A stretch of 64,000 nucleotides of DNA from a bacterium (GTDB taxonomy: Bacteria > Patescibacteriota > Minisyncoccia > Phycocordibacterales > Phycocordibacteraceae), in NCBI GenBank assembly GCA_021833245.1, contig JAKBGA010000001.1, positions 7,466-71,465 of the forward strand, given 5' to 3'. This document shows positions 21,405 through 41,900 of this stretch, piece by piece. Positions within the stretch are counted from its first letter, which is position 1; each line of letters begins with the position of its first letter. The notes beneath the pieces were generated by a model. That model was not told the DNA's origin, made no database searches, and saw only the letters and a list, made by a program, of their open reading frames with translations. Both the position numbers and the translations under genes were made by a program.

Positions 21405-22019
21405 TTAAATAGAAACAACCTCGAGGAGCGTGCCACGACGACCGGGGACAGCACCCGAAACAATGATCTCGCCAGCCGCCACATCGACCGCGAGCACTTT
21501 AAGATTCGCCACGGTTACGCGATCGCCACCCATGCGACCAGCCATACGCATACCCTTTGCGACACGACCACCTGCACGACCACCCGACCCGCCGATGGAG
21601 CCTGGTGCACGCTCAGTATGCTTTTGACCATGCGTGCGCGGGCCACCGTGGAAACCGTGCCGTTTCACCACTCCTGCAAAACCTTTGCCCTTAGTGATGC
21701 CAGAAACTCGTACTATATCGCCCACTGTAAAGACCGACGCGTCAATCGTGTCGCCAATCTTCGCCACATCTTCGGTATGAAACTCGCGAATAGCCTCATA
21801 GCCTCTTCCTTTAGTATGCCCAAGAACAGCCTTGCTAATGTTTTTCGTTTTACGATTACCTTGACCGACTTGAGTTGCCGCATAACCATCTCTACCGTCT
21901 ACAGTCTTCACCTGCGTTACCGTTACTGGATCGGCGATGAGAATGGTTCCTGCGCGAGCACGACCATCCTCCCCGAACACACGGGTCATGCTTTCCTTCT
22001 TGGCAAGAATAAATTTCAT
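21405..22019 (-). CDS. rplC: 50S ribosomal protein L3
   Basis: MKFILAKKESMTRVFGEDG...FAGVVKRHGFHGGPRTHGQ is an L3 sequence. Confidence 0.9.
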   Translation of the reverse strand: MKFILAKKESMTRVFGEDGRARAGTILIADPVTVTQVKTVDGRDGYAATQVGQGNRKTKNISKAVLGHTKGRGYEAIREFHTEDVAKIGDTIDASVFTVGDIVRVSGITKGKGFAGVVKRHGFHGGPRTHGQKHTERAPGSIGGSGGRAGGRVAKGMRMAGRMGGDRVTVANLKVLAVDVAAGEIIVSGAVPGRRGTLLEVVSI

Positions 22020-22132
22020 TTTTAAAGCAAAACGCGCAACAGCAAGTCGCTTTGCGCGAGGTTGCTATAGGACCAGTCGTGGGCACCGTTCGTAGCGTTA
22101 ACAGCACTCTACACAAAATCATAAAAATATGC

Positions 22133-22163
22133 AAGAAAAAACCACATGTCCAAAAAAGACATG
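22133..22163 (-). terminator. rho-independent terminator after the inserted sugar transferase gene, overlapped by a promoter-like element for rplC
   Basis: The minus strand has a CATGTC/GACATG stem with a 7-nt loop, followed by GGTTTTTTCTTGC. Further downstream on the minus strand are TTGCAT, a 17-nt spacer and TAGAGT (about 22106-22134), which look like -35/-10 boxes. Confidence 0.5.
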
Positions 22164-22166
22164 CGG

Positions 22167-22739
22167 TTAAAGGCCATTACGCCCTAAAACTGTTTTGACG
22201 GTTCGGGAAAGAATATATAGATCAAGTAGGAAACAATGGTGGTTAATATAGAAGGATTCTAGACGGAAAACACATCGAATACCGCGTTTGAGCGACCACA
22301 TTCTCCCATGGATCTGCTCAAGCCCGGTCAACCCGGGCCGAACGTTGTTAAGTCGAAGCGCGTATTCAGGAATCTCCTGGATACACTTTTCAACAAATTC
22401 AACCCGATGAGGACGTGGGCCAACTAGACTCATCTGCCCCAACAACACATTGATAAGCTGTGGTAGTTCGTCAATGTGCGTTTCACGCAAAAACTTTCCC
22501 GGCACCGTAATTCGGTTATCACCCAACAAAACCATGTCGAACGGATACCCACTTCCATCCTTCATGGTTCGAAACTTAAAGATGACAAATGACTTACCAC
22601 GATAACCAACACGAGTCTGCCGAAAGATAATCGGCCCAGGTGAAGTTACCCTAATCCAAATCGCAATAAAAAGAACCAGCGGGGCTGAAAAGATCAAGAT
22701 TATGAATGTGCATATGAGATCAAATATTCTTTTGCTCAT
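22167..22739 (-). CDS. small bacterial sugar transferase (polyprenyl-phosphate glycosyl-1-phosphate transferase; WbaP/PglC-like catalytic domain)
   Basis: One N-terminal TM helix and the Bac_transf motifs (RQTRVGYRGKSFVIFKFRTM, DELPQLINVLLGQMSLVGPRP). The start was refined to MSKRIFDL. It is inserted between rpsJ and rplC. Confidence 0.75.
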   Translation of the reverse strand: MSKRIFDLICTFIILIFSAPLVLFIAIWIRVTSPGPIIFRQTRVGYRGKSFVIFKFRTMKDGSGYPFDMVLLGDNRITVPGKFLRETHIDELPQLINVLLGQMSLVGPRPHRVEFVEKCIQEIPEYALRLNNVRPGLTGLEQIHGRMWSLKRGIRCVFRLESFYINHHCFLLDLYILSRTVKTVLGRNGL

Positions 22740-22862
22740 CACTTCCTCCTTAAAAGCGGTAAAAGTGATAGTCGCTGTATACCACAAAAATATGTATATC
22801 GTCAAGTACAAGAAACCGCCCCTACAAGGGGCGGTTTCTTGTACTTCTTTTACAGCATCATT

Positions 22863-23303
22863 CTAAACCATCTTGACGTCTATCGTAACCCCAGAAGGAA
22901 GATTAAGGTTCGTGAGGGCCTCGATCACCTTGGGCGATGGGTTCAGGATATCGACGAGTCGCTTATGAACGCGCATTTCAAACTGTTCGCGTGCATCCTT
23001 ATGCACGAACGTTGAACGATTCACTGTCCAACGTTTGGTCTCAGTTGGAAGCGGTACGGGGCCGACAACAGTTGCGTCAAAGCGGGCCGCGGTATCCATA
23101 ATCTGTTTCACCGAAAGATCAAGAATCTTATGTTCATAGGCACGAACACGAATTCGAAGTTTGTGTTCTACTGAGGGTGCTGTAGCAACTTTTTTTGAAC
23201 CGACTTTTGTCCGCGATATCTTTGATATTGTGACTTTCCCTACTTTTGATTTTGTTGCTACTGTTGTTGCCATACGAGTACTTCCTGATCCGAGTATCGG
23301 CAT
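22863..23303 (-). CDS. rpsJ: 30S ribosomal protein S10 (N-terminal extension)
   Basis: KLRIRVRAYEHKILDLSVKQIMDTAARFDATVVGPVPLPTE is the S10 core. The true start may be the Met at 23273. Confidence 0.9.
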   Translation of the reverse strand: MPILGSGSTRMATTVATKSKVGKVTISKISRTKVGSKKVATAPSVEHKLRIRVRAYEHKILDLSVKQIMDTAARFDATVVGPVPLPTETKRWTVNRSTFVHKDAREQFEMRVHKRLVDILNPSPKVIEALTNLNLPSGVTIDVKMV

Positions 23304-24502
23304 TACGCTGTAATCTTGGTCACGACACCAGCACCAACGGTCTTACCTCCTTCCCGGATAGCAAAACGTTGCTGCTCCTCAAGAGCAACTGGTGCCACGA
23401 GTTTCACCTTGAATGTGACTGTATCGCCAGGCATAACCATTTCCTTACCTTCTGCGAGAGTTACTTCACCGGTCACATCCGTCGTACGAATATAGAACTG
23501 TGGTTTGTATCCAGAGAAGAATGGCGTGTGTCGTCCACCTTCGTCCTTACCGAGAATGTAGACCTCTGCTTCAAAGTCAGTATGCGGCGTAACTGAGCCA
23601 CTCTTGGCGAGAACCTGACCGCGATGTACGTCCTCTTTCTTGGTTCCACGTAGAAGAAGACCGGCATTGTCACCCGCTTGACCTTCCTGAAGCTGCTTAT
23701 TGAACATTTCGATGCCTGTGACAGTCGTCTTCGACGTCGCCTTGATGCCGACAATTTCGACTTCCTCACCAACTTTTACAGCACCACGCTCAATACGCCC
23801 AGTGACTACCGTGCCTCGACCTTCAATCGAGAAGATGTCCTCGATGGGCATGAGGAATGGTTTGGTGAGCTCACGCTGCGGCATGTCGAAATAAGTGTCC
23901 ATTGTGTCGACAAGCTCTTTCACCTTCATGGCGTACTCGTCATTGGCGTCCTTCGCCTCAAGAGCGCGGAGACCGGAGCCACGGATAATTGGCGTGTTCG
24001 CACCGTCATAACCCTGCTTCGTAAGCAACGCATGAATCTCCTCTTCGACAAGATCAACGAGATCTTTGTCGGCCACCATATCCACCTTGTTAAGGAAAAC
24101 GATTAACTTCTTGAGGCCAACTTGCTTCGCGAGTAAGATATGCTCGCGCGTCTGCGGCATTACACCATCAGTTGCGGCAACTACGAGGATTGCGCCGTCC
24201 ATTTGGGCAGCACCCGTGATCATATTTTTTATGTAGTCGGCGTGTCCTGGGGCGTCAATGTGCGCGTAGTGACGATTCGGTGTTTCATATTCAGAGTGGT
24301 GGAGGGCAATAGTAATACCGCGTGCTTTTTCTTCTGGGGCGCTGTCAATTTTATCGACGCCTTCAACACGAGCGCTATAGCCCTGTCCTGAAAGCATCGA
24401 AAGAACGTGTAGAATACCCGCCGTGAGTGTCGTTTTTCCATGGTCCACATGACCGATGGTGCCAACGTTCATGTGCGGCTTGTTGCGATTAAATTCTGCC
24501 AT
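23303..24502 (-). CDS. tuf: elongation factor Tu
   Basis: [17 protein letters not shown] and NKVD are the GTPase motifs. Length is 399 aa. Confidence 0.97.
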
Positions 24503-24764
24503 ATTAAATCGGATGATCTTAAGTTAATAAATCACGAATTAATCCGACGTCTGTCTTGCCGACAAGACAAGTGAGTCGGAACAAACTCTCGAGCTTGCCG
24601 ACCCACAAAAGCAGACAAGCCAAAGAGCGACGCCAAGATGCGTTATAGGCACTATACGCAAACGCGTTTATAAATGCAACTCACCCACGTGGATACACTG
24701 TGAAAATTATTTCCTGCTCGCGCTGATATCTTGAACGATGTCTATAGTGAATCAACTCTTCCAC

Positions 24765-26126
24765 TTACTGACTGAGTGTCCCGATCCAAACACCACCTTG
24801 AGACGTAAGTGCCACGAGGCGCATACCATCGGAGGAAGAGATAATGCTACTCCAGGAGTGCAAGCCTGCGCTCGTTTGAGCGTTCCATGTACTGCCAGAG
24901 TCGGAAGACGTATAGATATAGCCTCCAGTACCAGCGCCGGCGTCATAGATTGCCGCGAGATGCGTACCGTCGGCGGAAGAGACAATACCACCCCAGTAAC
25001 GCTGACCGGCACCAGTTTGAGCGGTCCATGTAGAACCAGAGTCCGATGATGTATAAATGTCACCGCCGCTCCCAGTTCCGCCGTCAGACGCTGCGAGATG
25101 CGTACCGTCGGCAGAAGAAACGAGACCAGACAAGGCACCCGTTGCGTCCCCCATACTATGCATGATCCATGTGGTGCCAGAATCCGAGGATGTGAAAACA
25201 CAGCTACCCACTTCGGTACACGTAGTGTCAATGACTGCGAGATGCGTACCGTCGGCGGAAGAAACAATATGACCGAGCGCGATTTGATAAGACGTACCAT
25301 CTTGAGGTAGCGTGTGAGTAGCCCAAGTAACGCCGAAATCGGCAGAAGTATAAACAACATCAAGCCCTGCAACCGCGAGATGCATACCGTCGGCGGAGGA
25401 CGCGATTCCCGATGCGTTTGTAATTTGACCGGCAGTACCAGTAATGGCGCGCTTAACCCAGGTGACACCGGAATCAGCGGAAACATATACTTCTTTGCCG
25501 TCGGTACCAGCGGCTGCGAGATGTGTACCGTCAGCGGAAGAAGTTATATACCACAATGATGATCCCCCGGGGACGGGCCGATAAACCCATGTGGTGCCAG
25601 AATCATTGGAAGTATATACACCTCCATTTGGGAGGGTATCAACTGCTGCGAGATGCGTACCGTCGGCGGAAGAAGTGATGGTGGAAAAATATAAGGTTGA
25701 TGAACTTTTTGCTTTATATGAACCTTCTGCATTGTGTTCAGCCCAGGTCCAAGAACCCCCCGTGTTATTAATCGGCTCTGTCTGGGGCGCGGAAACATTA
25801 GAGTTATTAGAGTTAGAGTATGTAAAATACGCGAAAACCGCTCCTCCGCCAATAATGGCAATGGCGACCAAGACGATGAGTTTTGTAGAAATTGCTGCCC
25901 CTCTTTTATTTGATACATGATTTAGACTTGTTGCAGATTGCTGTTGGATCGGTGTTGAGAGGTGTGAAGAAATAGATGGTGTCGGAATACTCATTGCGGC
26001 AAATGCTGCACTGATGTCTGAAACCTGCCATCCGTTCGTCGTGAGTTCTTTTGTGATATCTTCCCTTGAAATGCCAGAGGCCATTTGTTGGCGGATGTAA
26101 TTCAGGAGTTGTTCGTTGGGCATCAT
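24765..26126 (-). CDS. membrane-anchored BNR/Asp-box repeat (beta-propeller) protein with a conserved about 40-aa cytoplasmic N-terminal module
   Basis: The N-terminus (LLNYIRQQMASGISREDITKELTTNGWQVSDISAAF) is followed by a TM helix and then about 7 repeats of SSADGTHLAA...YTSxDSGxTW, the S-x-D-x-G-x-T-W Asp-box/BNR motif. It is inserted between fusA and tuf. Several overlapping frame-shadow ORFs are repeat artefacts. Confidence 0.7.
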   Translation of the reverse strand: MMPNEQLLNYIRQQMASGISREDITKELTTNGWQVSDISAAFAAMSIPTPSISSHLSTPIQQQSATSLNHVSNKRGAAISTKLIVLVAIAIIGGGAVFAYFTYSNSNNSNVSAPQTEPINNTGGSWTWAEHNAEGSYKAKSSSTLYFSTITSSADGTHLAAVDTLPNGGVYTSNDSGTTWVYRPVPGGSSLWYITSSADGTHLAAAGTDGKEVYVSADSGVTWVKRAITGTAGQITNASGIASSADGMHLAVAGLDVVYTSADFGVTWATHTLPQDGTSYQIALGHIVSSADGTHLAVIDTTCTEVGSCVFTSSDSGTTWIMHSMGDATGALSGLVSSADGTHLAASDGGTGSGGDIYTSSDSGSTWTAQTGAGQRYWGGIVSSADGTHLAAIYDAGAGTGGYIYTSSDSGSTWNAQTSAGLHSWSSIISSSDGMRLVALTSQGGVWIGTLSQ

Positions 26127-26245
26127 AAGAACAGGTTATGTATATGCTGCAAGCGTAGCACAATCGCCGCCGTTTCGAACAGCAGTTGTTTACAAGCCCT
26201 CTCGTGGTGATTCATTTACAGTTCGCGATGACCAAACACGTGTCC

Positions 26246-28393
26246 TTATTTTCGCGAGGCGATTATGTCTTGGGCGACATTGTTCGGGACAGTATCGTAG
26301 TGATCAAACTCCATTGTCATACTTCCGCGTCCTTCGGTCATTGAGCGGAGCGTCGTGGTGTAGCCGAACATCTCGGAGAGCGGCACCTTCGCTTTAATTG
26401 TCTTGTTCATGCCGCGATCCTCCATACCCTCGATCTGACCGCGCTTACCCGAGAGGTTGCCCGTAATGTCGCCCATGAATTGCTCAGGCACAGTAACTTC
26501 CACGCGCATAATTGGCTCGAGAATGACCGCCTTTGCCTTCGATGCAGCTTCCTGGAAAGCCATTGATGCCGCGATCTTGAAGGCGATTTCGGATGAGTCG
26601 ACATCGTGATAGGAACCATCGTAGAGATCTACGGACACATCAACCATCGGGAATCCAGCAAGGAAGCCACGGGCCATCGCCTCACGAACACCCTTTTCCA
26701 CCGCCGGAATGTATTCCTGCGGAACAACACCGCCCTTTATATTGTTGATAAACTCGAAATGATCTTCGCGTGTAATATTCTTAGACACCTTTGCACCCTC
26801 TACGAGAGGTTCTAATTTCTTCATGCGGATCTTCACATGACCATACTGACCACGACCACCAGTTTGTTTAATATATTTACCCTCGGCCTCTGAAGAACCG
26901 AGAATGGTTTCACGATACGCTACTTGCGGTTTCCCTACATCCGCAACAACATTGAACTCGCGCTTCATGCGATCTACGAGAATCTCCAGATGAAGCTCGC
27001 CCATGCCAGAGATGATAGTCTCGGCAGTCTCATCATCAGTTTTGATTCGAAAGGTCGGATCTTCATCTGCAAGCTTACGAAGCGCAATGCCCATCTTCTC
27101 TTGATCTGCTTTTGTCTTAGGCTCAATACGCAAACTTACCACTGGTTCTGGAAATTTTATCTGTTCAAGCACAATGGGATTCGCCTCGTCGCAGAGCGTG
27201 TGTGAAGTTTTCGTGTCCTTCAGACCAACGGCGGCGGCAATCTCACCAGTGAATACTTTCGCGACCTCTTCACGTTTATCCGCTTGGAGACGCACAATAC
27301 GTCCGACACGCTCCTTGGAACCTGTTGTTGAATTATATACGTACGAACCAGCAGCGAGAGTTCCAGAATAAACACGAAAGAATGTTAATGCTCCAACGAA
27401 AGGATCAGTTTGAAGTTTGAAAACAAGCGCGCAAAACGGCTCATCATCTGATGCGTGACGTTCAATTGATTCGCCCGTCTTCGGATTTGTGCCAGTTGCA
27501 GGCGGAACATCGAGCGGACTTGGTAAATAATCGACAACGGCATCAAGTACGAGCTGAACACCCTTATTCTTGAGTGCGCTCCCGCAGTAAACTGGAAACA
27601 CCTCATTCGCGATAACCGCTTTACGTAGAATTGCCTTTAACTCAGAAAGTGAGGGTTCCTTGCCTTCGAGGTATGCGTTCATTACCGTATCATCTTGTTC
27701 AACAATGCGTTCTATGAGTTCAGCACGGTACTTCTTCGCATCTTCAAGAAGATTCTCTGGAATTTCTCCTTCAACTACCTCCTCGCCCATATTCCCCACG
27801 TAGGTGTACGCTTTCATTGTGAGAAGGTCGACCGCGCCCTCGTGTGCTGCCTCTTCACCAATGGGGATTTGCATGCGAATAGCCTTGGGTGAAAGTCGAT
27901 CAAGAATACTCTTGTATGAATTTTCAAATGATGCTCCAAGCCGGTCAAGCTTATTGACGAAACAGACGCGCGGCACTGACGCCTCGTCGGCGTAGCGCCA
28001 GTTGGTCTCGGACTGCGGCTCCACGCCCGCGACGCCATCGAACACGACAACAGCGCCGTCAAGCACACGCATCGAACGCTTTACCTCAGCAGTGAAGTCG
28101 ATGTGTCCCGGTGTGTCGATGATATTGAAACGGAATTTCTTGGATGCGTCCTTTTTGTCCTTCTCGCCAGTCTTGCTCCAGAAGCAAGTGATGGCGGCGG
28201 CAGTGATGGTGATACCGCGCTCACGCTCCTGCTCCATCCAATCGGTCGTAGTTTCGCCTTCGTGTACTTCACCGATCTTGTGCTGACTGCCCGTATAAAA
28301 AAGTACGCGCTCACTTGTGGTCGTCTTTCCTGCGTCGATGTGGGCAATGATGCCGAAGTTGCGCACTTTCTCAAGCGGATAATCACGGTTCAT
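26246..28393 (-). CDS. fusA: elongation factor G
   Basis: [15 protein letters not shown] and DTPGHIDF are present, with the domain IV/V sequences. Length is 715 aa. Confidence 0.97.
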
Positions 28394-28475
28394 AAATAAT
28401 AATGGATAAAAAAATAAAAAGCGCCGAGGCGTTCTCCAGAGAATAGCCTAGATAAAATAAATTGCAAAGTATGCA

Positions 28476-28506
28476 AAAATAAAAAGCCCACTCTTGCAGA
28501 GTGGGC
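28476..28506 (-). terminator. rho-independent terminator between the 136-aa hypothetical gene and fusA
   Basis: GCCCACTC-TTGCA-GAGTGGGC stem-loop. Read on the minus strand it is followed by TTTTTATTTTT. A 26-bp palindrome (TTATTGTGATTT/GAAAATCACAATAA) lies next to it and overlaps the ORF stop. A TTGCAA/TATTCT promoter-like pair sits downstream, before fusA. Confidence 0.55.
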
Positions 28507-28530
28507 TTAAAAATTATTGTGATTTGAAAA

Positions 28531-28941
28531 TCACAATAACTGATGCGCTTCCATGATAAAGATTTGCTGTGCCTGTGGAAGATCACAGAACAAATCTCTC
28601 AGTTCTGCCCTTGTCTTTGGCATAAGGATACTCGAGACAACGCGAATATTTACGCCATCGTAAGTCCCGTTCATTTGTAAGTGGATACGAAGAAGTACCT
28701 CTCCTGCTGGTGTACAGAATTCCACGCACTTCCGCTGATAGCGGTAGCGCACTCGGATACAAATCGCATCTCGAGTCATCTGGTCTGCAATTTCATCCAG
28801 CCGCGCCAGCAGACGGGAGATACGTAAATTTCTTCTCCATGGATTGAATTCCGCAATGCACGACAACCACGTTGGCATGTAGTATGAATTGCCGGTAACG
28901 TTCTCGCTCCTCTTTGGAACAAGCTTAACCGTTGATGACAT
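28531..28941 (-). CDS. hypothetical protein (136 aa) inserted between rpsG and fusA
   Basis: A clean ORF with a dedicated downstream terminator. No motif I can recognise, but it contains several cysteines. Confidence 0.45.
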   Translation of the reverse strand: MSSTVKLVPKRSENVTGNSYYMPTWLSCIAEFNPWRRNLRISRLLARLDEIADQMTRDAICIRVRYRYQRKCVEFCTPAGEVLLRIHLQMNGTYDGVNIRVVSSILMPKTRAELRDLFCDLPQAQQIFIMEAHQLL

Positions 28942-29062
28942 GATACGTCTCCCTATGTAATGAACAATGATAAACGGAAAATTTAACCCTGATCCGGATT
29001 TTTTGTAGCACTATTTAAATAAATAGTCAAGATTCGCACCTCCTCTACATCTTGCTTAACGG

Positions 29063-29527
29063 TTACCAGGCAAAATGTGCAAAAGCTTTATTAGCTTCAG
29101 CCATACGATGCATTTCGTCCTTTTTCTTTATCGCATCACCTTCATTCTTTGCGGCAAGGATAAGTTCATCGGCAAGCTTATCTGCCATTGGTTTACCTTT
29201 TTTTGCACGTGCAGCGTTGATAATCCAACGAAATGAGAGCGTAAGACGACGGTTCTGAGAAACTTCACGCGGCACCTGGTAATTGGCACCTCCAACACGA
29301 CGAGAACGAACCTCCATGAGCGGTGAAACGTTACGCAACGCTGTCTCGAATGTCTCGAGAGGATTGGTACCGTCTTTTTCAATGGTAGAAAACGCGCGAT
29401 AAACAACTGCACGCGCGGTGTCCTTCTTGCCATCCCACATGACAGCATTGATGAAACGATTGAGTGTTTCTGATCCATACTTAAGATCTGGGCGCCAAAC
29501 TCGCTTCTTTTTAAGAGGTCGACGCAT
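29063..29527 (-). CDS. rpsG: 30S ribosomal protein S7
   Basis: NAVMWDGKKDTARAVVYRAF...NYQVPREV is an S7 sequence. Confidence 0.95.
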   Translation of the reverse strand: MRRPLKKKRVWRPDLKYGSETLNRFINAVMWDGKKDTARAVVYRAFSTIEKDGTNPLETFETALRNVSPLMEVRSRRVGGANYQVPREVSQNRRLTLSFRWIINAARAKKGKPMADKLADELILAAKNEGDAIKKKDEMHRMAEANKAFAHFAW

Positions 29528-29529
29528 AT

Positions 29530-29943
29530 TTATTTTGCAGAAGGACGCTTCGCGCCGTAACGCGAGCGTGAGCGACGGCGTTTATCAAGACCAGCGGTGT
29601 CAAGCTTTCCACGCACAATAGTATATTGCACGCCGATATCCTTCACACGTCCGCCACGAAGTAGCACGACTGAGTGCTCCTGAAGATTATGCGTCTCGCC
29701 TGGGATATAAGCGGTAACCTCCATACCATTTGTAAGACGAACGCGTGCGATCTTTCTGATAGCTGAGTTTGGTTTCCTCGGAGTCTTTGTCGTCACTTTA
29801 GTACAAACACCGCGTTTAAAAGGTGATGGATAGAAAGTTGGACGATTCGAGAGTACGTTAAAGCCGCGCGCAAGGGCGGGTACCTTCGTCTTGGACGATT
29901 TGTTCTTGCGGCCTCTCTTCGAGAGCTGATTGATAGTTGCCAT
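29530..29943 (-). CDS. rpsL: 30S ribosomal protein S12
   Basis: PKKPNSALRKV-type motif ([30 protein letters not shown]). Confidence 0.95.
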
Positions 29944-34576: not shown

Positions 34577-35628
34577 TGTTTTCCAGTCGCAGCCTGTTGT
34601 CGCGCGGTCAGATTAGCCATGGCATTTACAAATAACGCCCCTGGCGTTCCGGCAGGAAGCGTGACACCCGCCACCGCGTAAATATTGGCAAGGGTGGTAA
34701 ACGCGTCCTCGACATTGAGTTCCGTCGAGGGGTACTGTTGAAGTGCGAATATCGTAGCCAAAGGGTCGGTGTTTACTCGTGCAAAGTCTGCGTAAATTTC
34801 ACTCAGACGCATAATCGAGTTTATGATTACCAGATCGACAGGCGCAAGTTCTTGCGGCACTTGAAGCACCGCAATTCCGCTAGCTAATTTTCTATACGCA
34901 TTTGAAAGTGTGACGAGGTTGGCAAGTGCGGAGGTGTTACCGTCTTCCACGACAGACTGCAAATATCCGACTCCACTCATCGTCGTGTTAACTGCATTTT
35001 CTTTTAATACCGCTCCCGCTGCGACTGCAAAATTCTTAAGCGCAGAAGTTCCCGTACCGTAAACCGCAAGGTCTTTCGCATTTTTGAAATCAGCCGTTAA
35101 TGACACTTGCTGCAAAAGTTGGGTTATAGCCTGCTCGGCGAGAGTATTTTCCTGACTAGCCGTGAGACCGACACCGCCGTTTGTCTGTTCCGCCGAAAGG
35201 TAGAGTGTGAAAAAATCTTTCGCAAAAGTATCGGTTAGGGTGCCTTCGGTCGGAGCGGTGAGTCCGTATGTGGCATAGTCAATGCTGGTACTTGCCACGG
35301 GTGTTGAGGTTGCAATTGGAATATCTGCGATTGCTTTGGGGACAATGAGACCTTTTGCAACAGCTTCTCCATCAGTCATACCGAGGTGGAAATAGTCGGT
35401 GGTGGTGCTATTTACGGGAATTCCATATAGCGGTTTCTCCCAGTCAGGAAGGCCGTCACCATTTGAATCTTTTGTGGCTATTGCTTGCAAGAGAGCCGTT
35501 TCGGTAAACGCCTGCGCCACGGGTGGATCCCCGACACCACGCGCAAGCACGTATACACCAACAATAAGCGCAATTGAGAAAAGCGTTGCGGCTGGAACTC
35601 TCCAATTTCTAAGAAATTTTCCCCTCAT
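34573..35628 (-). CDS. bitopic membrane/secreted protein with an Asp-rich Ca-binding-like loop (unknown function; VirB8/TcpC-like topology is speculative)
   Basis: An N-terminal TM helix followed by an extracytoplasmic domain containing DSNGDGLPDWEKP. It is the first gene of the minus-strand run 35628 to 30017. Confidence 0.45.
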   Translation of the reverse strand: MRGKFLRNWRVPAATLFSIALIVGVYVLARGVGDPPVAQAFTETALLQAIATKDSNGDGLPDWEKPLYGIPVNSTTTDYFHLGMTDGEAVAKGLIVPKAIADIPIATSTPVASTSIDYATYGLTAPTEGTLTDTFAKDFFTLYLSAEQTNGGVGLTASQENTLAEQAITQLLQQVSLTADFKNAKDLAVYGTGTSALKNFAVAAGAVLKENAVNTTMSGVGYLQSVVEDGNTSALANLVTLSNAYRKLASGIAVLQVPQELAPVDLVIINSIMRLSEIYADFARVNTDPLATIFALQQYPSTELNVEDAFTTLANIYAVAGVTLPAGTPGALFVNAMANLTARQQAATGKQ

Positions 35629-35704
35629 ACGTATGCTGCCCTTAAAGTATAGCAGTCATGACGAAAAGAACTGTCGTAATCTGTGCATATGATATTATTT
35701 CACC

Positions 35705-36679
35705 ATGAAAAAAATCGTGCGGATCTGTTTACTGGGAATCAGTGTTTCTCTTGGTTTTATTTTTCTTTGTGGAAGCATTCAGAAGGTATCGGCTACTTCT
35801 GTTTTATTTGACCGCCCACTTATGATTGGCTCTCAGGGAAAAGATGTCTACGCGTTACAAAAAATCCTCAACAAGAATCCGGCAACACGCATACAGGGTG
35901 TCGGACCTGGATCCCCAGGGAAAGAAACTTTCTATTTCGGCTATCTTACGCAAAATGCCGTCATTCGTTTTCAGGACAAATATGCAGACGAAATCCTAGC
36001 GCCTGCAGGGCTTACCCAAGGCAGTGGATATGTCGGATATTACACGATGGATAAACTCAATGCACTTTCAACAGTAAACCCGAATTCTCAAACTATACCG
36101 TTAGCGGCTTCATCAACCGTGTTGTCTCAAAATCCGAATTTGGCTCACCTGAATGAATTCATCGCAGCAATAGATGCGCTTGGGAAGAAGCAAGGGATGG
36201 ACGCCACAAAACTCATATCTATCGAAAAAGCCATACGAACGACCGCGGCCTCCTCCACGACTGACTTTCGAAAAGAATTTCTCAAGGAGGCGCCGCTCGC
36301 AATCGCAGGAACAGCATATTCCTCCATGCCAGGATTCCCGGGCATCATCCGGGATGTTTTAGTATCCCTAGGTCTCGTCCATGTTGCGGAAGCAGGAAGT
36401 GGTGTTCCATTTGGAGGCGCACTCACATACGCAATTCCCTGCACATGTGCAGAGGGTGTCTGGTATATTTTTATCCGACCGCTACCTCCCTCATACGCAA
36501 CACTCTTGAGTTATGAAACGGGAACCCAATTATTCGAAAGTTACAACACACCAATGACAACTGAACTGCTTGGATTCTATACACCCGGTCCGCCTGCGTG
36601 TTGGTTTTATGCTGGGGTAACTTGCGCTTTTCTTCCCCAGGAAGGCCTCATTTCTCCCGTGCTCGGTTCTGCTCCGTAG
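35705..36679 (+). CDS. secreted peptidoglycan-binding domain protein (PG_binding_1) with Cys-containing C-terminal domain
   Basis: Signal peptide, then GSQGKDVYALQKILNK...FGYLTQNAVIRFQDKYA, the classic PGBD1 helix pair. It is divergent from the envelope operon, and its 3' end overlaps rsmA convergently by about 30 nt. Confidence 0.65.
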   Translation: MKKIVRICLLGISVSLGFIFLCGSIQKVSATSVLFDRPLMIGSQGKDVYALQKILNKNPATRIQGVGPGSPGKETFYFGYLTQNAVIRFQDKYADEILAPAGLTQGSGYVGYYTMDKLNALSTVNPNSQTIPLAASSTVLSQNPNLAHLNEFIAAIDALGKKQGMDATKLISIEKAIRTTAASSTTDFRKEFLKEAPLAIAGTAYSSMPGFPGIIRDVLVSLGLVHVAEAGSGVPFGGALTYAIPCTCAEGVWYIFIRPLPPSYATLLSYETGTQLFESYNTPMTTELLGFYTPGPPACWFYAGVTCAFLPQEGLISPVLGSAP

Positions 36680-37418
36680 AAAGCGCGAGCCACGCAGACA
36701 GCGACAGGTCTTCCGCGCGCGCCTTTTCCGGAATGTTCCCAGGAGAAAATCCCGCTTCGAGGAAATTTTTCCGCACAAATTTACGTTTATGTGCGAATCC
36801 TGCATGCAAAAGTTTGAAGAATTGTTTTTCTTCATTATGTGTAGAAAAACTCTTCCGTGAAATATTGCGGATAGTGAGCACAGCCGAATCCACCTTCGGT
36901 GCTGGTTTGAAAGCGCCGTGTGGAACTGTAAATTCATACTTTGGCGTACCGTACGCCTTCACTGAAAGCGAAAGGATGCTCTCTTTTTTTGAGCACGCAA
37001 TACGACGAACAACTTCCTTCTGTACCAAAAGAGTTATCGAGCTCGGTTGATTGCTTGATTCAAGGAACATGCGGAATATCTCGCCTGTAAGATAGTACGG
37101 TATGTTTGCGACAAGAACGTAGCCCTCTGGGAGTATCGTGGGATTGAAGGTGCGAATATCGCCTTCGGAAAGCTCGAGACGGCCTTCGGTAATCTCAGGC
37201 GCGAAATCAATACGCAGTTTTTTGAAAAGCTCCGGATCAGCTTCAAGCGCGATAACCTTCCTTGCCCGTTTTAAGAGTTCCCGCGTGAGCATGCCCGTCC
37301 CAGGGCCGATTTCAAACACGACTGCGTTATTCGCAAGCTCAGCAACCAGTGCGATGCGCTCTGCAATTCGCGCATGTACCAGAAAGTTCTGCCCGAGCGA
37401 TTTTTTAGCATACACCAT
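36648..37418 (-). CDS. rsmA: 16S rRNA (adenine1518/1519-N6)-dimethyltransferase
   Basis: LGQNFLVHARIAERI...VFEIGPGTGMLTRELL is the KsgA SAM-binding motif. Confidence 0.9.
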   Translation of the reverse strand: MVYAKKSLGQNFLVHARIAERIALVAELANNAVVFEIGPGTGMLTRELLKRARKVIALEADPELFKKLRIDFAPEITEGRLELSEGDIRTFNPTILPEGYVLVANIPYYLTGEIFRMFLESSNQPSSITLLVQKEVVRRIACSKKESILSLSVKAYGTPKYEFTVPHGAFKPAPKVDSAVLTIRNISRKSFSTHNEEKQFFKLLHAGFAHKRKFVRKNFLEAGFSPGNIPEKARAEDLSLSAWLALSTEQNRAREK

Positions 37419-37651
37419 ACTCCTGATGATAGCCTGTTCCTTGGCATTTTTCCGTATGTTGACAACTGGCGATGCGATACATATTCATCTACACAACCTA
37501 GCTTGGTAAATGCACAGACGTCACTATAGATTGATTGAGTGATGTCAGACTGAATGCTCGTCTTTTCTACAATTATAGCTTATTTCGTCGTAAATCCTAA
37601 CGCGATGTCTACATTGTTTTGAATGAATGGGCCCGTGGAAGAAATGATGAC

Positions 37652-38665
37652 CTACTGTTGAGTCGTAGTGGAATTCACATTGGGTTCATTGCCTATTAGG
37701 CTAGGCATAAAAAACGTAAAAAAGTAGTAGAAAGAGGCAAGGAGGACCAACAATCCCACAATGCCACTAGCGATGGGAAACCTTCGACCGGACGTCGGCT
37801 GCCTCGCGGCAAGTGCGGGTTTAAGAGTCGTGAGATTTTGATAGATTTTATAAAGATAAACGGCAGAAAAAGTGTTGATGAGCAACGTGATTATTGTGTT
37901 AATTATTATAAGCAACGTTATTTCTCCAGGCATGGTTATAAAAACAACACTTAGTAGCACCCTTAGTAGGTATATAGGTATGGTACATATATAGAGTAGT
38001 AAAAGTCTTACACAAATATCCCACCAATAACCCCGCACATACTCACGACTCTGGAGTAGCGCATTTAGCCCGCGTTTCCCTTCGATAACCAGCACGAAAG
38101 GACTGAATGAAAACCATATAGACATTATGACGCCCGGAACGATAAGCATGACAAAGCCGCCAGTCATAACGAAAAATATGAGAATCGCCACCCAGAGCAC
38201 GGAGAAAAGTAAGGAGAAACCAGCGCGAAATGATTGCATAATCCCGTCTCCCTTAGATAGAGCGTAGATGACACCCGTACTCGCAGGGAAAAGAAGCAAC
38301 AGGCTTAGAATATAGGCGAGACTCTGTGCCATTCCACCCATGATTTGCCCAAATCCTAAAAGAAGATAGGGAATGCCGATGAGTACTATGAGGGTCAGGA
38401 AGTGTTCTTTGTAAAGTGCGAAAGAATCTGAGAAAAGCTGTCCGATCGAGGCGAGCTCTTGGTTATTGCCAATCTGATTGGAAGGTATTACCGTTCGATC
38501 TCCATTTGACAATGGGGTTGGCGGTTGAGTCACGGTTGGATTCAGAGCCTCATTCACATCGGAAGCCTGCCATCCAGCGGCAATAAGGGATTTTGAAATT
38601 TCTTCTTTTGAGACCCCGGCGGCAAGCTGCTGCCGAACGTAGTCAAGGAGCTGTTGGTTAATCAT
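37652..38665 (-). CDS. polytopic membrane protein sharing the about 40-aa N-terminal module with the BNR protein
   Basis: The N-terminus (LLDYVRQQLAAGVSKEEISKSLIAAGWQASDVNEAL) is about 50% identical to the N-terminus of the 24765-26126 protein. A Pro/Thr linker and about 7 TM helices follow. Confidence 0.55.
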   Translation of the reverse strand: MINQQLLDYVRQQLAAGVSKEEISKSLIAAGWQASDVNEALNPTVTQPPTPLSNGDRTVIPSNQIGNNQELASIGQLFSDSFALYKEHFLTLIVLIGIPYLLLGFGQIMGGMAQSLAYILSLLLLFPASTGVIYALSKGDGIMQSFRAGFSLLFSVLWVAILIFFVMTGGFVMLIVPGVIMSIWFSFSPFVLVIEGKRGLNALLQSREYVRGYWWDICVRLLLLYICTIPIYLLRVLLSVVFITMPGEITLLIIINTIITLLINTFSAVYLYKIYQNLTTLKPALAARQPTSGRRFPIASGIVGLLVLLASFYYFFTFFMPSLIGNEPNVNSTTTQQ

Positions 38666-38721
38666 TGAAACTAATTATGGCAGATAAATTATCAGAAAAT
38701 TGGTTATCCACAGGGAGGTAT

Positions 38722-40629
38722 TTAGTCTATATGAATATCAATGCCTTCTGTTTCGTCGTAAACCGCAAGCGAACGGTCGAGGTCATCTAGGAAGGACGAG
38801 GGTTCGGCCGCAAAGTCGCTGCCGTATATCTTGCGTACGCGTGCAAGTGTGAGAAAGAGACGCTCTTTCGCGCGTGTCATCGCGACATAAAAAAGCCGTC
38901 TCTCCTCTTCCTTATCACGATTGTTATCGCCACCCATCCCTTGGTGCGGGAAAAGACCCTCCTCCATACCACTCACGAAGACTGTGTTGAACTCAAGTCC
39001 TTTTGCCGCATGAACAGTCATGAGTGTAATACCTGTTCCCTTGCCTTGATCCATCTCATCTTGATCGCTCGCGAGAGCCGCCTCGGCAAGGAAAGCAGCA
39101 ATACCTTCCCTACCGGGCAGCGTATCATGTCGTGCGGCGACTGACGCAAGCTCTTCAACGTTTTCGAACCGTTCGCGATTCTCTGTGCTCCCTTCATCGA
39201 AAAGCATCTTGCCCATGCCGCTCTTCTCAACGACGAGCTTCACGAATTCTGAGGGAATAAGCGAGAGCGCATCCCGTGAGAGCTCATTCACGATACGCTC
39301 GAACGTTTCGACTCTTGCAAGTTCTCCGGCACGGAGCACGGAACGCTGTCCCGCCGCAAGCTTGCCGAGCGTCACGCGGCCAATCCCACGCGAAGGGTTC
39401 GCAGCGGCACGCAGTTTGTCCGCTTCGCGCGATGGATCGAGCGCAAGCCGCACCCATGCGAGCGTATCCTTTACTTCCTTGCGCGCGAAGAAGCGTGTGC
39501 CGATCAACTTGTACGGCACACCAGCCTTAAGCAGACCTTCTTCAAGCGCGCGGGATTGAAAGTTAGTACGAAAGAGCACTGCGACTTCCTCGGAGAGGGT
39601 ACCGGTCTTCATTAACTCCCGTATTTTCAAAGCAATCCAGCGTGCTTCGTCTTCGGCAGAGCGCGCTAGATGGATGACGATGGGTTCGCCTGCGGCGTTC
39701 TTGGTCGTCGAAGATTTCTCTTTGCGATTTTTATTCTTTTCGATGACTGTGTTCGCCGCGTTTACCAGATTCCTCGTCGAACGATAATTCTGCGCAAGAA
39801 TAATCGTCTGTGCTCCTGGATATGTCTTATCGAACCCGAGGAGATTCTCAATTGTCGCGCCACGCCAGGTATAAATGGTTTGATCAATGTCTCCAACGAC
39901 GAAGATATTTTTGTGTTTCGCTACGAGCAGATTTGCGAGACGACCTTGAAGCGCGCTCGTGTCCTGATATTCGTCGATGTGCAAATAGCGCCAACGATCC
40001 TGTGCGAGGGATCGGACATTAGCATGTTCCTCAAGCAGACGAAGCGGGAGCGCAATGAGGTCATCGAAATCGAGTGCTTTCTCCGTTGCGAGCACCTTTT
40101 CATACTGGAGCCATGTCTCTGCAACAACGCGCGAACCAAAACTACCGTGCGCATACTTCTCATAGAATTCGCTCATGCGCATCCCTTCCCCTTTTGCCCG
40201 TGAAATGCGGCCGAGCACTGAGCGCGGCGAGAGTTCCTTCGTCCCAATATCGAGCGCCTTGAGCACGGCAGTTATTGCTTTTTCTGAATCATCGCGATCG
40301 AACACCCTGAAGAAACGCGGAATACCGATGACCTTGCCATGACTCTCCAGTAATTCTCGGCCGAGACCATGGAAGGTTGCGATAAACGGCACAGCACGAT
40401 CATCACCGAGCATCGCGCGGATCCTGTTTCGCATCTCGCGGGCAGCCTTATTGGTGAATGTGACGGCGAGAATTTGGTCAGCTGGAACACCCTCACAGAT
40501 AAGATGGTATATACGCGTTATGAGTACGCGTGTTTTACCACTACCAGCACCTGCAAGAACCGAGATGGGGCCATCCAGAGCGAGTACTGCCCGCTTTTGT
40601 TCTTCATTCAATCCTTCAAGATAGTTCAT
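38722..40629 (-). CDS. UvrD/PcrA-family ATP-dependent DNA helicase
   Basis: LNEEQKRAVLALDGPISVLAGAGSGKTRVL (Walker A), DEYQDT and the helicase IV-VI motifs are present. The start was refined to the Met at codon 12. Confidence 0.9.
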   Translation of the reverse strand: MNYLEGLNEEQKRAVLALDGPISVLAGAGSGKTRVLITRIYHLICEGVPADQILAVTFTNKAAREMRNRIRAMLGDDRAVPFIATFHGLGRELLESHGKVIGIPRFFRVFDRDDSEKAITAVLKALDIGTKELSPRSVLGRISRAKGEGMRMSEFYEKYAHGSFGSRVVAETWLQYEKVLATEKALDFDDLIALPLRLLEEHANVRSLAQDRWRYLHIDEYQDTSALQGRLANLLVAKHKNIFVVGDIDQTIYTWRGATIENLLGFDKTYPGAQTIILAQNYRSTRNLVNAANTVIEKNKNRKEKSSTTKNAAGEPIVIHLARSAEDEARWIALKIRELMKTGTLSEEVAVLFRTNFQSRALEEGLLKAGVPYKLIGTRFFARKEVKDTLAWVRLALDPSREADKLRAAANPSRGIGRVTLGKLAAGQRSVLRAGELARVETFERIVNELSRDALSLIPSEFVKLVVEKSGMGKMLFDEGSTENRERFENVEELASVAARHDTLPGREGIAAFLAEAALASDQDEMDQGKGTGITLMTVHAAKGLEFNTVFVSGMEEGLFPHQGMGGDNNRDKEEERRLFYVAMTRAKERLFLTLARVRKIYGSDFAAEPSSFLDDLDRSLAVYDETEGIDIHID

Positions 40630-40805
40630 CGTTCGAAATATAACGCACAAATCGTTCTCCACAGCTATCGACCGAGGCGGTTGACTGTTGACCTTTTTCA
40701 GCTACACTATAACTTGTAGCTGATTAAGGATGTATTCAAGAAATGGCTTATGTACATTGTATGTAGGCCATTTTTGTATGCGAAAGACTCACCAGATTCC
40801 CTTGT

Positions 40806-41900
40806 TTGTCTATTAAACTCAACCAACAATTTCTTATAATAGGGCTTGCTATTATTGCAGGAAGTGCGGTCATAGTAAGCGCCACAACATTCCTACCAAA
40901 TCGCGCATTCGCCTTTTGGCCGTTTTCTACAAACAATACAAATACCACGGATAGTACGATTATTCCAAGCGCTTCAACGCCTGCACTCATTGCGCCTGTA
41001 AACGAGAATCCGAATATAGAGACACCGCTTACGCTTGCTACTTCGGATGGTTCAGCGCTTGTTTCCTATACTGGAATAAGCGGAACAATTGCTGACATTT
41101 CAAATGTCACTCCCCCAGATCGAATTTCACTTTATGTTGTGCGTCCAGGTGATACGCTCTCGACGATTGCCAAAATGTTTGATGTTTCGGTTAATACTAT
41201 CGTCTGGGCAAACAACCTTCCGAGTACACGTGACATACAGCCTGGCAATACACTGCTCATCCTGCCGATTTCCGGAATCCAACACACGGTCACAAAAGGA
41301 GAAACACTCAAGTCGATTGCAGAAAAATATAGCGCTAATGCAAATGAGATAGCGCAATTTAATGGACTTGATTCATCCGTAGCTCTCACTGTTGGTTCGA
41401 CGGTAATTATCCCGGGTGGTGAATTCTCTCCATCGGGGATAGGGACATCTATACGTAAAAATGGTAAGTACCGAGTTGGTCCTGAGCCATATCTCGGGGG
41501 TAGTGGCCCCGCACAATCTGGTTATTACAGCAATCCGATGCCTGGCGGTATCATAACTCAAGGCATCCATGGTTGGAATGCCGTTGACATCGGTGCGCCA
41601 CTCGGCACACCAATCCATGCTGCCGCAAATGGTATAGTCATCGTGTCACGCGATAATGGCAGTTGGAATGGCGGTTACGGTAATTATGTCGTTATCACGC
41701 ATGATAATGGAACACAAACGCTGTATGCACACATGAAACGTTCTGCTGTTTCCGTGGGTCAATCCGTCTCATCGGGTCAGATCATTGGTTACGTTGGTAT
41801 GACGGGTCTTACGACCGGGCCACACGTCCACTTTGAGGTTCGTGGTGCAGCGAACCCATTTCGTAATTGCACAGTTGGCACTATTTGCGAACCGCAGTAG
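40806..41900 (+). CDS. LysM (x2) + M23 family murein endopeptidase
   Basis: Two LysM repeats (YVVRPGDTLSTIAKMF, HTVTKGETLKSIAEKY) and the M23 catalytic motifs (HGWNAVDIGAPLGTPI, HAHM, GPHVHFEV). Confidence 0.85.
   Translation: MSIKLNQQFLIIGLAIIAGSAVIVSATTFLPNRAFAFWPFSTNNTNTTDSTIIPSASTPALIAPVNENPNIETPLTLATSDGSALVSYTGISGTIADISNVTPPDRISLYVVRPGDTLSTIAKMFDVSVNTIVWANNLPSTRDIQPGNTLLILPISGIQHTVTKGETLKSIAEKYSANANEIAQFNGLDSSVALTVGSTVIIPGGEFSPSGIGTSIRKNGKYRVGPEPYLGGSGPAQSGYYSNPMPGGIITQGIHGWNAVDIGAPLGTPIHAAANGIVIVSRDNGSWNGGYGNYVVITHDNGTQTLYAHMKRSAVSVGQSVSSGQIIGYVGMTGLTTGPHVHFEVRGAANPFRNCTVGTICEPQ

What the first reader, a model, noticed from the sequence alone, without database searches (positions are those of the whole stretch)
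24765..26126. Shared about 40-aa N-terminal cytoplasmic module on two unrelated membrane proteins
The BNR-propeller protein begins MMPNEQLLNYIRQQMASGISREDITKELTTNGWQVSDISAAFAAMS. The polytopic protein at 37652-38665 begins MINQQLLDYVRQQLAAGVSKEEISKSLIAAGWQASDVNEALNP. Both follow the pattern LLxYxRQQxAxGxSxExIxKxLxxxGWQxSDxxxA. In both cases the module precedes a Pro/Ser/Thr linker and the first TM helix. This suggests a lineage-specific cytoplasmic targeting, regulatory or partner-binding module.
Basis: seen in the sequence. Interest (0 to 1): 0.55.

Follow-up and report, generated by a model that had tools for sequence, protein, structure and literature searches.

The report
Unnamed cytoplasmic three-helix handle domain
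The two membrane proteins really do share a ~44-residue N-terminal domain, and it turns out to be a large, unnamed family of small three-helix domains that ultra-small (CPR) bacteria attach, on the cytoplasmic side, to the front of hundreds of different membrane and surface proteins, most likely as a common docking handle.

Summary
ORF A (24765-26126, minus strand; BNR/sortilin-like propeller) and ORF B (37652-38665, minus strand; YciC/UPF0259-like polytopic protein) align only over their first ~50 residues (49% identity, E 2e-13).

The module is not a local duplication. A 16-sequence profile finds 5,022 cluster representatives (E<=1e-3) among 1.84 billion proteins. In nearly all of the best 150, the module starts at residue 1. 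A Pro/Ser-rich linker (median 36 aa) follows, then a membrane helix, then unrelated C-terminal parts (RDD, BNR, DKNYY, DUF2157, UPF0259; most have no Pfam domain).

Named carriers are almost all CPR/Patescibacteria. Tandem C-terminal arrays occur in a Woesearchaeota (DPANN) protein and in two giant Ig-like proteins of unknown organism.

Charge flanking the first membrane helix puts the module in the cytoplasm (K+R 2.6 on the N side against 0.9; p 3e-16).

No Pfam, NCBIfam or PDB sequence match reaches significance. It is therefore a new sequence family with a known small fold.

The function is inferred, not shown. The module is acidic with a conserved polar stripe, which fits a protein-docking handle better than DNA binding.

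One recent swap of the module plus 44 upstream bases between two genes shows the module is shuffled as a unit.

The parts
25989..26126 (-). Module copy 1: residues 1-46 of ORF A (MMPNEQLLNYIRQQMASGISREDITKELTTNGWQVSDISAAFAAMS). Predicted three-helix bundle.
   Evidence: Translation. Profile hit E 3e-21. AF2 pLDDT 91.5 with helices at 5-16, 21-30 and 35-45.
25881..25988 (-). Pro/Ser/Thr/Gln-rich linker of ORF A (residues 47-82), ending in K/R residues on the cytoplasmic side of the TM helix.
   Evidence: Sequence. Linker composition across the family: P 16%, S 11%, median length 36 aa.
25824..25880 (-). Single transmembrane helix of ORF A (residues 83-101, LIVLVAIAIIGGGAVFAYF).
   Evidence: Kyte-Doolittle peak 2.55. 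Translation.
24768..25823 (-). Extracytoplasmic part of ORF A: BNR/Asp-box, sortilin-Vps10-like beta-propeller repeats.
   Evidence: Pfam Sortilin-Vps10 E 3.7e-11 (42.9 bits, cut-off 33), BNR_6, BNR_2. NCBIfam F510_1955 weak.
38537..38665 (-). Module copy 2: residues 1-43 of ORF B (MINQQLLDYVRQQLAAGVSKEEISKSLIAAGWQASDVNEALNP).
   Evidence: Translation. Profile hit E 5.5e-24. 49% identical to copy 1.
38462..38536 (-). Pro/Thr/Ser-rich linker of ORF B (about residues 44-68).
   Evidence: Sequence. Residues from ~70 onward are conserved in module-less orthologues P0009 and P0011, so they belong to the membrane domain.
37655..38461 (-). YciC/UPF0259-like polytopic membrane domain of ORF B. First TM at residues 90-108; about 7 hydrophobic segments.
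   Evidence: Pfam UPF0259 E 3.1e-7 (30.9 bits, cut-off 31.4). NCBIfam YciC E 6.9e-7. TM scan. Translation of the first TM.
38539..38709 (-). Recently exchanged cassette: 44 nt upstream of B plus its first ~42 codons (the BLAST match ends in codon 43). It is 97.1% identical over 171 nt to the 5' end of an unrelated 4-5-TM gene (P0022, L006:7957-8127), with sharp breakpoints at the module/linker boundary.
   Evidence: Alignment. blastn L006 against the window gives this single hit. Context of P0022 beside a T4SS-like cluster.

Best explanation
The shared N-terminus is one member-pair of a large, so far unnamed domain family. It is a ~44-residue, fast-folding three-helix bundle with this consensus: M-[IV]-N-Q-Q-L-L-D-Y-[IV]-[RK]-Q-Q-L-x-x-G-V-S-K-E-x-I-x-x-x-L-x-x-x-G-W-x-x-x-D-[IV]-x-E-A-F. 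It sits at the extreme N-terminus of membrane proteins and stays in the cytoplasm. A flexible Pro/Ser-rich tether of ~10-100 residues joins it to the first membrane helix.

It is combined promiscuously with unrelated membrane-embedded or extracytoplasmic parts. These include single-pass proteins carrying propellers or Ig-like adhesin domains, and RDD, YciC-like, DUF2157 and other polytopic proteins. Among carriers that have a source name it occurs mainly in CPR/Patescibacteria. Tandem arrays occur on the cytoplasmic tails of a Woesearchaeota protein and of two giant Ig-like proteins of unknown organism.

Its fold is that of a RecX-type three-helix repeat. Inferred mechanism: the module is a protein-protein docking handle. 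Its conserved acidic/polar face (Q5, D8, Q12/Q13 on helix 1; D36, E39 on helix 3) would be recognised by a shared cytoplasmic partner or scaffold. Many different envelope proteins could then be localised, clustered or regulated through one interaction. The module spreads between genes by recombination of a cassette made of the module and its upstream region.

Shown: existence, breadth, position, topology statistics, fold, partner diversity, and one recent cassette exchange. Inferred: partner binding and its purpose.
For: Pairwise similarity is confined to the module.

There are 5,022 cluster representatives at E<=1e-3 and 696 at <=1e-10.

Of 153 carriers with an N-terminal module, 138 have a hydrophobic helix after it (88 have one TM, 50 have several). 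The linker median is 36 aa, with P 16% and S 11%. K+R is 2.64 on the N side of the first TM against 0.92 on the C side, with N>C in 107 of 133 proteins (Wilcoxon p 3e-16). Module net charge averages -2.0.

In 47 of 50 independent GTDB loci the ORF starts at, or within two codons of, the start of the module.

The Pfam census of 136 carriers finds RDD 7, BNR_6 3, DKNYY 2, TSP3_bac 2 and UPF0259 2, with most carriers having no domain and no model covering the module.

Orthologues of B exist with and without the module.

Tandem cytoplasmic arrays lie after the TM of proteins with extracellular Ig-like or Cys-rich parts: P0034, P0074 and P0044 (P0044 is Woesearchaeota). There is also a soluble coiled-coil protein with six copies, P0033.

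Conserved polar positions: Q5 83%, D8 70%, Q13 82%, E21 77%, D36 84%, E39 81%.

A 171-nt cassette is 97% identical between B and an unrelated gene, and the similarity ends at the module boundary.
Against: No partner has been identified, and no experiment exists.

Some conserved residues (L6, I10, I23, L27, W32, F41) are simply the hydrophobic core. I had no coordinates, so I could not verify that the polar stripe is solvent-exposed.

The two-module AF2 model gave no confident inter-module packing (pTM 0.43), so self-association is unsupported.

Gene neighbourhoods are heterogeneous and give no functional hint: A lies between fusA and tuf, and B between uvrD and ksgA.

Taxonomy of most of the 5,022 hits is unknown. 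The CPR restriction rests on 52 pattern-selected loci and a handful of named proteins.
Confidence: 0.6

Rival explanations
1. The module is a topology plug. A fast-folding N-terminal domain would force the following signal-anchor helix into the N-in orientation, or prevent its cleavage. It would need no specific binding partner.
For: The module is always immediately N-terminal, is always followed by a TM helix, and is small and confidently folded. From general knowledge, folded N-terminal domains are known to fix N-in orientation of signal anchors.
Against: A plug would not need strongly conserved polar surface positions across thousands of proteins. The positive-inside flank already specifies topology. 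The module also occurs as C-terminal tandem arrays after the last TM and in a soluble protein, where no plug is needed. Module-less orthologues of B exist with the same membrane domain.
Confidence: 0.12
2. The module is a membrane-tethered nucleic-acid-binding HTH. The proteins would be ToxR/CadC-like one-component regulators or membrane DNA tethers.
Against: Mean net charge is -2.0 (range -5 to +3), and the conserved polar residues are mostly acidic or amide. No HTH family passes threshold. The module is fused to many polytopic housekeeping-type membrane proteins and to tandem arrays, which is unlike sensors.
Confidence: 0.08
3. The module is a bona fide diverged RecX, Smg/DUF494 or RPA32C family domain, already named, that merely falls under the score thresholds. 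The finding would then be an annotation gap rather than a new family.
Against: hhalign probabilities are only 19% for both. No single window module reaches any gathering score. Concatenating 24 modules gives DUF494 97 bits and RPA_C 90 bits, with RecX absent from the 25 families listed. The reversed-sequence control already reaches 44 bits on an arbitrary family, so the 48-bit RecX_HTH1 score of the P0044 array is not decisive. Different methods point to different families, as expected for a simple shared helical motif.
Confidence: 0.15
4. The similarity is only a recent local duplication or gene conversion within this genome and has no general significance.
For: One recent exchange does exist: 97% nucleotide identity over 171 nt between B and the P0022 gene.
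Against: The A and B module-coding DNA is diverged (about two thirds of columns invariant by my count) with unrelated upstream DNA. There are thousands of carriers in many CPR lineages.
Confidence: 0.01

Closest known systems
RecX three-helix repeats (Pfam RecX_HTH1/2/3; PDB 3c1d, 3dfg, 3e3v, 3d5l)
   Different: There is no significant sequence match (hhalign 19%). It is usually a single copy at the N-terminus of membrane proteins rather than three copies in a soluble protein. There is no recA linkage. The distribution is CPR/DPANN. The tandem model shows no confident RecX-like stacking.
Smg / DUF494 N-terminal region and RPA32 C-terminal winged helix (Pfam RPA_C)
   Different: hhalign against Smg gives 19%. 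The module has no wing strands. The context is different (soluble DNA-metabolism proteins).
Promiscuous small cytoplasmic N-terminal modules on bacterial membrane proteins (e.g. zinc-ribbon/DZR, GYF_2, FHA, anti-sigma N-domains), and ToxR-like N-terminal HTH-TM-sensor proteins
   Same: The architectural logic is the same: a small cytoplasmic domain, a linker, a TM and variable outside or membrane parts. Many unrelated carriers occur, and more than one can occur in a single genome.
   Different: The fold and sequence are different. No Zn ligands, FHA or OmpR-type HTH features are present. This comparison rests on my own knowledge, and only Pfam non-matches were tested here.
Cation_ATPase_N (N-terminal helical segment of P-type ATPases)
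   Same: It shares the motif G-[LV]-S-x-x-E-[AI]-x3-L-x3-G. Weak Pfam hits are seen (6 of 60 modules; P0033 at 29.5 bits).
   Different: Only a helix-loop-helix stretch matches. No ATPase domains follow.

Membership tests
RecX (Pfam RecX_HTH1/2/3) | Sequence match above the Pfam gathering score | tested here: not met
   No RecX hit for A, B or their modules at E<=10. Only 2 of 60 modules hit RecX_HTH2 (best 7e-4) and 2 of 60 hit RecX_HTH1. hhalign probability is 19%. The 48-bit score of the P0044 array is comparable to the reversed-sequence control of 44 bits.
RecX (Pfam RecX_HTH1/2/3) | Three-helix repeat fold | tested here: met
RecX (Pfam RecX_HTH1/2/3) | Three tandem repeats in a soluble ~150-200 aa protein, genetically linked to recA | tested here: not met
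   The module is a single N-terminal copy followed by a TM helix. The neighbours are fusA/tuf and uvrD/ksgA.
RecX (Pfam RecX_HTH1/2/3) | Binds and inhibits RecA filaments | not testable with these tools
   This needs biochemistry.
DUF494 / Smg | Sequence match above threshold over the ~150-aa family model | tested here: not met
   Single modules give E 0.002-0.07 and cover only positions 11-47 of 153. hhalign probability is 18.8%.
UBA/CUE-like three-helix ubiquitin-binding domains | Pfam UBA match, or best structural match to UBA | tested here: not met
Membrane-tethered HTH regulators (ToxR/CadC type) | OmpR-type winged-HTH DNA-binding domain with a basic recognition surface | tested here: not met
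   No Trans_reg_C or other HTH family reaches significance. Module net charge averages -2.0.
Membrane-tethered HTH regulators (ToxR/CadC type) | N-terminal cytoplasmic domain, single TM, extracytoplasmic domain | tested here: met
   This holds for A and for 88 of the 153 carriers with an N-terminal module. The other 50 TM-containing carriers are polytopic.
New family proposed here (N-terminal CPR three-helix handle) | Consensus M-[IV]-N-Q-Q-L-L-D-Y...G-V-S-K-E-x-I...L...G-W...D-[IV]-x-E-A-F at residues 1-44, then a linker, then a TM | tested here: met
   A scores 71 bits and B 80 bits on the 60-sequence profile. The architecture is met by both.

The most novel reading that the evidence does not exclude
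The module is a cytoplasmic sorting or docking tag specific to ultra-small episymbionts. It would occur in CPR bacteria and, through transfer, in DPANN archaea. A single cytoplasmic scaffold or machine would recognise it. One candidate is the kind of multi-module coiled-coil protein seen in P0033. That scaffold would gather adhesins, propellers, pilus- or secretion-associated proteins and polytopic proteins into one envelope structure such as a host-attachment site. This would be an N-terminal, cytoplasmic counterpart of the C-terminal sorting signals LPXTG and PEP-CTERM. New surface proteins would be recruited to the system simply by recombining the promoter-plus-module cassette onto them.
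Probability: 0.15. Interest if true: 0.75.

Novelty: new variant of a known kind. Interest (0 to 1): 0.45.

Why it matters
CPR bacteria make up a large share of bacterial diversity. Their envelope proteins are mostly unannotated: Méheust et al. 2019 (PMC6744442) report 106 CPR-enriched families, 76 of them with a TM helix, and most are poorly annotated.

A single 44-residue profile that flags thousands of otherwise unrelated membrane proteins gives three things:
- An annotation handle and a topology marker (N-in) for these proteins.
- A concrete bait for pull-downs to find the cytoplasmic partner that presumably organises the CPR cell surface.
- A documented example of domain shuffling by recombination of a cassette made of the upstream region and the domain.

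If the module is only a structural spacer, the finding is just one more DUF-type family.

Tried and rejected
**Database searches on the module**
- Pfam and NCBIfam scans of the proteins and of the isolated modules gave nothing above threshold.
- PDB sequence searches with 16- and 60-sequence profiles returned only de novo designed helical repeat proteins and noise.
- The afdb50 library was not available.

**Searches for more carriers**
- The search for homologous proteins with module alignments found one protein (A1) and none (A7), because of the word index. The exhaustive representative search was needed.
- The search for related loci with the 16-sequence alignment failed because there was no conserved stretch. 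A 5-sequence alignment worked.
- The viral-contig scan found no carriers.

**Tests of family membership**
- I concatenated 24 modules to boost weak Pfam signals. The reversed control shows that this inflates scores to ~44 bits, so I withdrew the RecX_HTH1 score of P0044 as evidence of homology.
- My UBA-like idea, from reading the motif, is not supported.

**Other attempts**
- The two-module AF2 model, run to test RecX-like stacking, was inconclusive (pTM 0.43).
- The promoter and terminator scan upstream of A and B found nothing on the coding strand.
- Exact look-ups did not settle whether the P0022 gene lies in the same genome as the window.
- Literature searches found no description of this domain.

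Full report
**1. The observation**

ORF A (window 24765-26126, minus strand, 453 aa) and ORF B (37652-38665, minus strand, 337 aa) exist as described. BLASTP of the full proteins aligns only the N-termini: A residues 2-50 with B residues 1-51, 49% identity, 71% positives, E 2e-13. Every other segment scores at noise level.

A profile of the module finds only these two ORFs in the six-frame translation of the 64-kb window.

The two module-coding stretches share many invariant columns, about two thirds by my count. The tool reports only 72% mean column identity for the whole alignment. The upstream DNA is unrelated. These are therefore old paralogous copies, not a recent duplication.

A carries a sortilin/BNR-type propeller (Pfam Sortilin-Vps10, 42.9 bits, cut-off 33). 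B is YciC/UPF0259-like (30.9 bits, cut-off 31.4; NCBIfam YciC E 6.9e-7).

**2. Breadth of the family**

Searching with B returned orthologues both with the module (P0003-8, P0010, P0017, P0019) and without it (P0009, P0011-16). It also returned unrelated proteins that share only the module:
- P0020, P0022, P0023 and P0029, with a 4-8-TM domain.
- P0024.
- P0025, single-pass with an outside domain.
- P0031, single-pass with a coiled coil.
- P0032, single-pass and Pro-rich.

A 16-sequence profile (A2) was run with HMMER over 1.84 billion cluster representatives. It found 5,022 proteins at E<=1e-3 and 696 at E<=1e-10.

In the best 150 the module is almost always at residues 1-44. Of the 153 proteins in hand that have an N-terminal module, 138 have a hydrophobic helix after it: 88 have one TM and 50 have several. 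The 15 without a TM are mostly short fragments.

A few proteins have 2-3 N-terminal copies (P0035, P0036, P0037, P0048, P0095, P0133, P0137). Four carry C-terminal tandem arrays:
- P0044: 1,358 aa, with a Cys-rich outside part, a TM and about 14 copies by eye.
- P0034 and P0074: 2,842 and 2,364 aa, with Ig-like domains, TMs and arrays.
- P0033: a soluble Lys/Glu-rich coiled-coil protein with six copies.

**3. Fusion partners**

Pfam scanning of 136 carriers gives RDD (7), BNR_6 (3), DKNYY (2), TSP3_bac (2), Sortilin-Vps10 (2), UPF0259 (2), and DUF2157, DUF805 and others once each. Most carriers have no Pfam domain. No Pfam model covers the module itself. The module is therefore promiscuous.

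**4. Taxonomy**

A pattern scan of one genome per GTDB species returned 52 loci. By record title nearly all are CPR/Patescibacteria:
- Paceibacterota/Parcubacteria and Minisyncoccia.
- Adlerbacteria, Nomurabacteria, Falkowbacteria, Uhrbacteria, Kaiserbacteria, Yanofskybacteria, Komeilibacteria, Veblenbacteria and Tagabacteria.

One locus is labelled 'archaeon'. A few carry generic or probably wrong labels.

L007 (MAG BP5.bin54) is 98% identical to window 35531-41665, so the window belongs to that species.

In 47 of the 50 loci examined the ORF starts at, or within two codons of, the start of the module, and 45 of the 50 have a predicted TM helix; the five without one are truncated, very short or sub-threshold ORFs.

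Named cluster members are from Minisyncoccota, Minisyncoccia, Adlerbacteria or the Patescibacteria group. P0044 is from a Woesearchaeota (DPANN) archaeon. Two carriers, P0046 and P0060, have near-adjacent NCBI accession numbers, which suggests a single genome. Two other pairs of carrier genes lie on one contig. No carriers were found in IMG/VR viral contigs.

**5. Topology**

Over 133 carriers, the 15 residues before the first TM hold 2.64 K+R on average, against 0.92 after it. N>C holds in 107 cases, N<C in 6, with Wilcoxon p 3e-16. By the positive-inside rule the N-terminus, and hence the module, is cytoplasmic.

This agrees with three further points. No signal peptide precedes the module. 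A's TM is flanked by K/R on the N side (…NKRGAAISTK-LIVLV…). The C-terminal arrays follow the TM in proteins whose N-terminal parts are Ig-like or Cys-rich, which are presumably outside.

The linker has a median length of 36 aa and is rich in Pro (16%) and Ser (11%), consistent with a flexible tether.

**6. Fold**

AlphaFold2 on alignment A2 gives pLDDT 91.5 and pTM 0.68, with helices at 5-16, 21-30 and 35-45.

**7. Is it a named family?**

By sequence it is not.
- No Pfam or NCBIfam model reaches its cut-off.
- The PDB sequence search returns only designed helical repeats.
- Scanning 60 modules singly gives recurrent sub-threshold hits to DUF494/Smg (15), RepB_primase_C (13), Cation_ATPase_N (6), RPA_C (5), and RecX_HTH2 and RecX_HTH1 (2 each).
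- hhalign of the 60-sequence profile against E. coli RecX aligns residues 8-42 with RecX 77-111 at 19% probability. Against E. coli Smg it aligns with residues 11-44 at 18.8%.

The P0044 array scores 48 bits on RecX_HTH1. A control shows that this is weak. Concatenating 24 modules yields DUF494 97 bits and RPA_C 90 bits, while the same modules reversed reach 44 bits on an arbitrary family.

My conclusion is that this is a new sequence family. It shares the RecX-repeat fold and a simple motif, G-[hydrophobic]-S-x-E-E-I-x3-L-x3-G-[aromatic]-x3-D-I-x-E-A-F, with several small helical domains. Homology to any one of them is unproven.

**8. Conservation**

Over 178 modules the most conserved positions are M1, L6, Y9, G17, I23, L27, G31, W32 and F41, which are core or turn positions. 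A set of polar positions is also strongly conserved: Q5 83%, D8 70%, Q13 82%, E21 77%, D36 84% and E39 81%.

By helical periodicity, Q5/D8/Q12 form one stripe on helix 1, and D36/E39 one on helix 3. I infer a conserved acidic/amide surface, but I could not check exposure because no coordinates were available. Mean net charge is -2.0, which argues against DNA binding.

**9. Shuffling**

Window 38539-38709 comprises 44 nt upstream of B plus its first ~42 codons (the BLAST match ends in codon 43). It is 97.1% identical over 171 nt to the 5' end of the gene for P0022. This is the only similarity between that 16.7-kb locus and the window, and it ends at the module/linker boundary.

P0022 is an unrelated 4-5-TM protein encoded next to a T4SS-like cluster (PrgI, TraC-like, VirB4/TraG-type ATPase, T4SS pilin). 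Its contig comes from the same ENA sample series in which protein A is found identically. Whether it lies in the same genome is not settled.

This shows a recent exchange of a cassette made of the upstream region and the module.

**10. Mechanism**

The points above are shown. The following is inferred: the module is a docking handle for a shared cytoplasmic partner or scaffold.

The reasons are:
- Promiscuity across unrelated carriers.
- A flexible tether.
- A conserved polar face.
- Acidity.
- The protein-binding roles of its nearest structural relatives, RecX and RPA32C (general knowledge).
- Multi-copy arrays on the cytoplasmic tails of giant adhesin-like proteins.
- A soluble multi-copy coiled-coil protein that could act as a cross-linker.

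Self-association is not supported by the two-module model (pTM 0.43; linker pLDDT below 50).

The rivals are a topology plug, a DNA-binding HTH, a diverged member of a named family, and local duplication only. Each is weighed in the rival section of this report, and the last is refuted.

**11. Literature**

Full-text searches found no description of this domain. Méheust et al. 2019 (PMC6744442) note 106 CPR-enriched families, 76 with at least one TM helix and mostly poor annotation. They do not mention an N-terminal module.

**12. Verdict**

This is a new, very widespread, CPR-centred family of a known small fold in a characteristic membrane-tethered architecture. Its function is unknown, and a docking handle is my preferred reading.

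Interest is moderate. It is useful for annotation and offers a tractable bait for studying CPR envelope organisation, but it is one of many uncharacterised small domains.

Noticed in passing
window 21405-29943 (minus strand): The str/S10 ribosomal cluster is interrupted by non-ribosomal genes. The order is S12, S7, a 136-aa ORF with no Pfam hit (28531-28941), EF-G, the module-bearing BNR protein A, EF-Tu, S10, a Bac_transf sugar transferase (22167-22811), and L3. The same order is seen in an independent contig (L001).
   Followed up: partly
window 38539-38709; L006:7957-8127: A 171-nt segment (44 nt upstream plus the first ~42 codons of B) is 97% identical to the 5' end of an unrelated membrane-protein gene that lies next to a T4SS-like cluster (PrgI, TraC-like, VirB4/TraG, T4SS pilin). 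The breakpoint falls at the domain boundary. It is unresolved whether both genes are in one genome.
   Followed up: partly
P0003-P0008 (orthologues of ORF B, window 37652-38665): Orthologues of B carry extra C-terminal extracytoplasmic extensions of 130-230 aa (PsbP-like PF01789/PF18933 in P0004, P0006 and P0008) that the window protein lacks. Other orthologues lack the N-terminal module. The YciC-like core is decorated at both ends.
   Followed up: no
P0033 (833 aa, ENA metagenome): This is a soluble, extremely Lys/Glu/Arg-rich protein. It has a repeated 'FLHDNFGMYKTKAEKER…ALEKARQVRHE' unit followed by six tandem copies of the module. It is a possible cytoplasmic scaffold, and its organism is unknown.
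   Followed up: no
P0044 (Woesearchaeota, MBI3031838.1), residues ~770-1358: There are about 14 tandem copies of the module (my count by eye; the profile scores 3 of them significantly) on the C-terminal side of the TM helix of an archaeal protein. Its N-terminal part is Cys-rich and probably extracellular. This suggests transfer of the module between CPR bacteria and DPANN archaea.
   Followed up: partly
L005 (GCA_037975565.1 contig JBBCBH010013801.1): Many genes are split into adjacent fragments (a class-I tRNA synthetase in five pieces, MgtC in two). This indicates a frameshift-rich assembly. The 67-aa module-only protein P0001 is probably a fragment.
   Followed up: no
L012:516-1325 and L012:1712-2392: Two neighbouring genes in a Veblenbacteria MAG both begin with the module (E 8e-23 and 9e-5). 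Likewise P0041 and P0042 lie on one 11-kb contig. Module genes can therefore be clustered.
   Followed up: no
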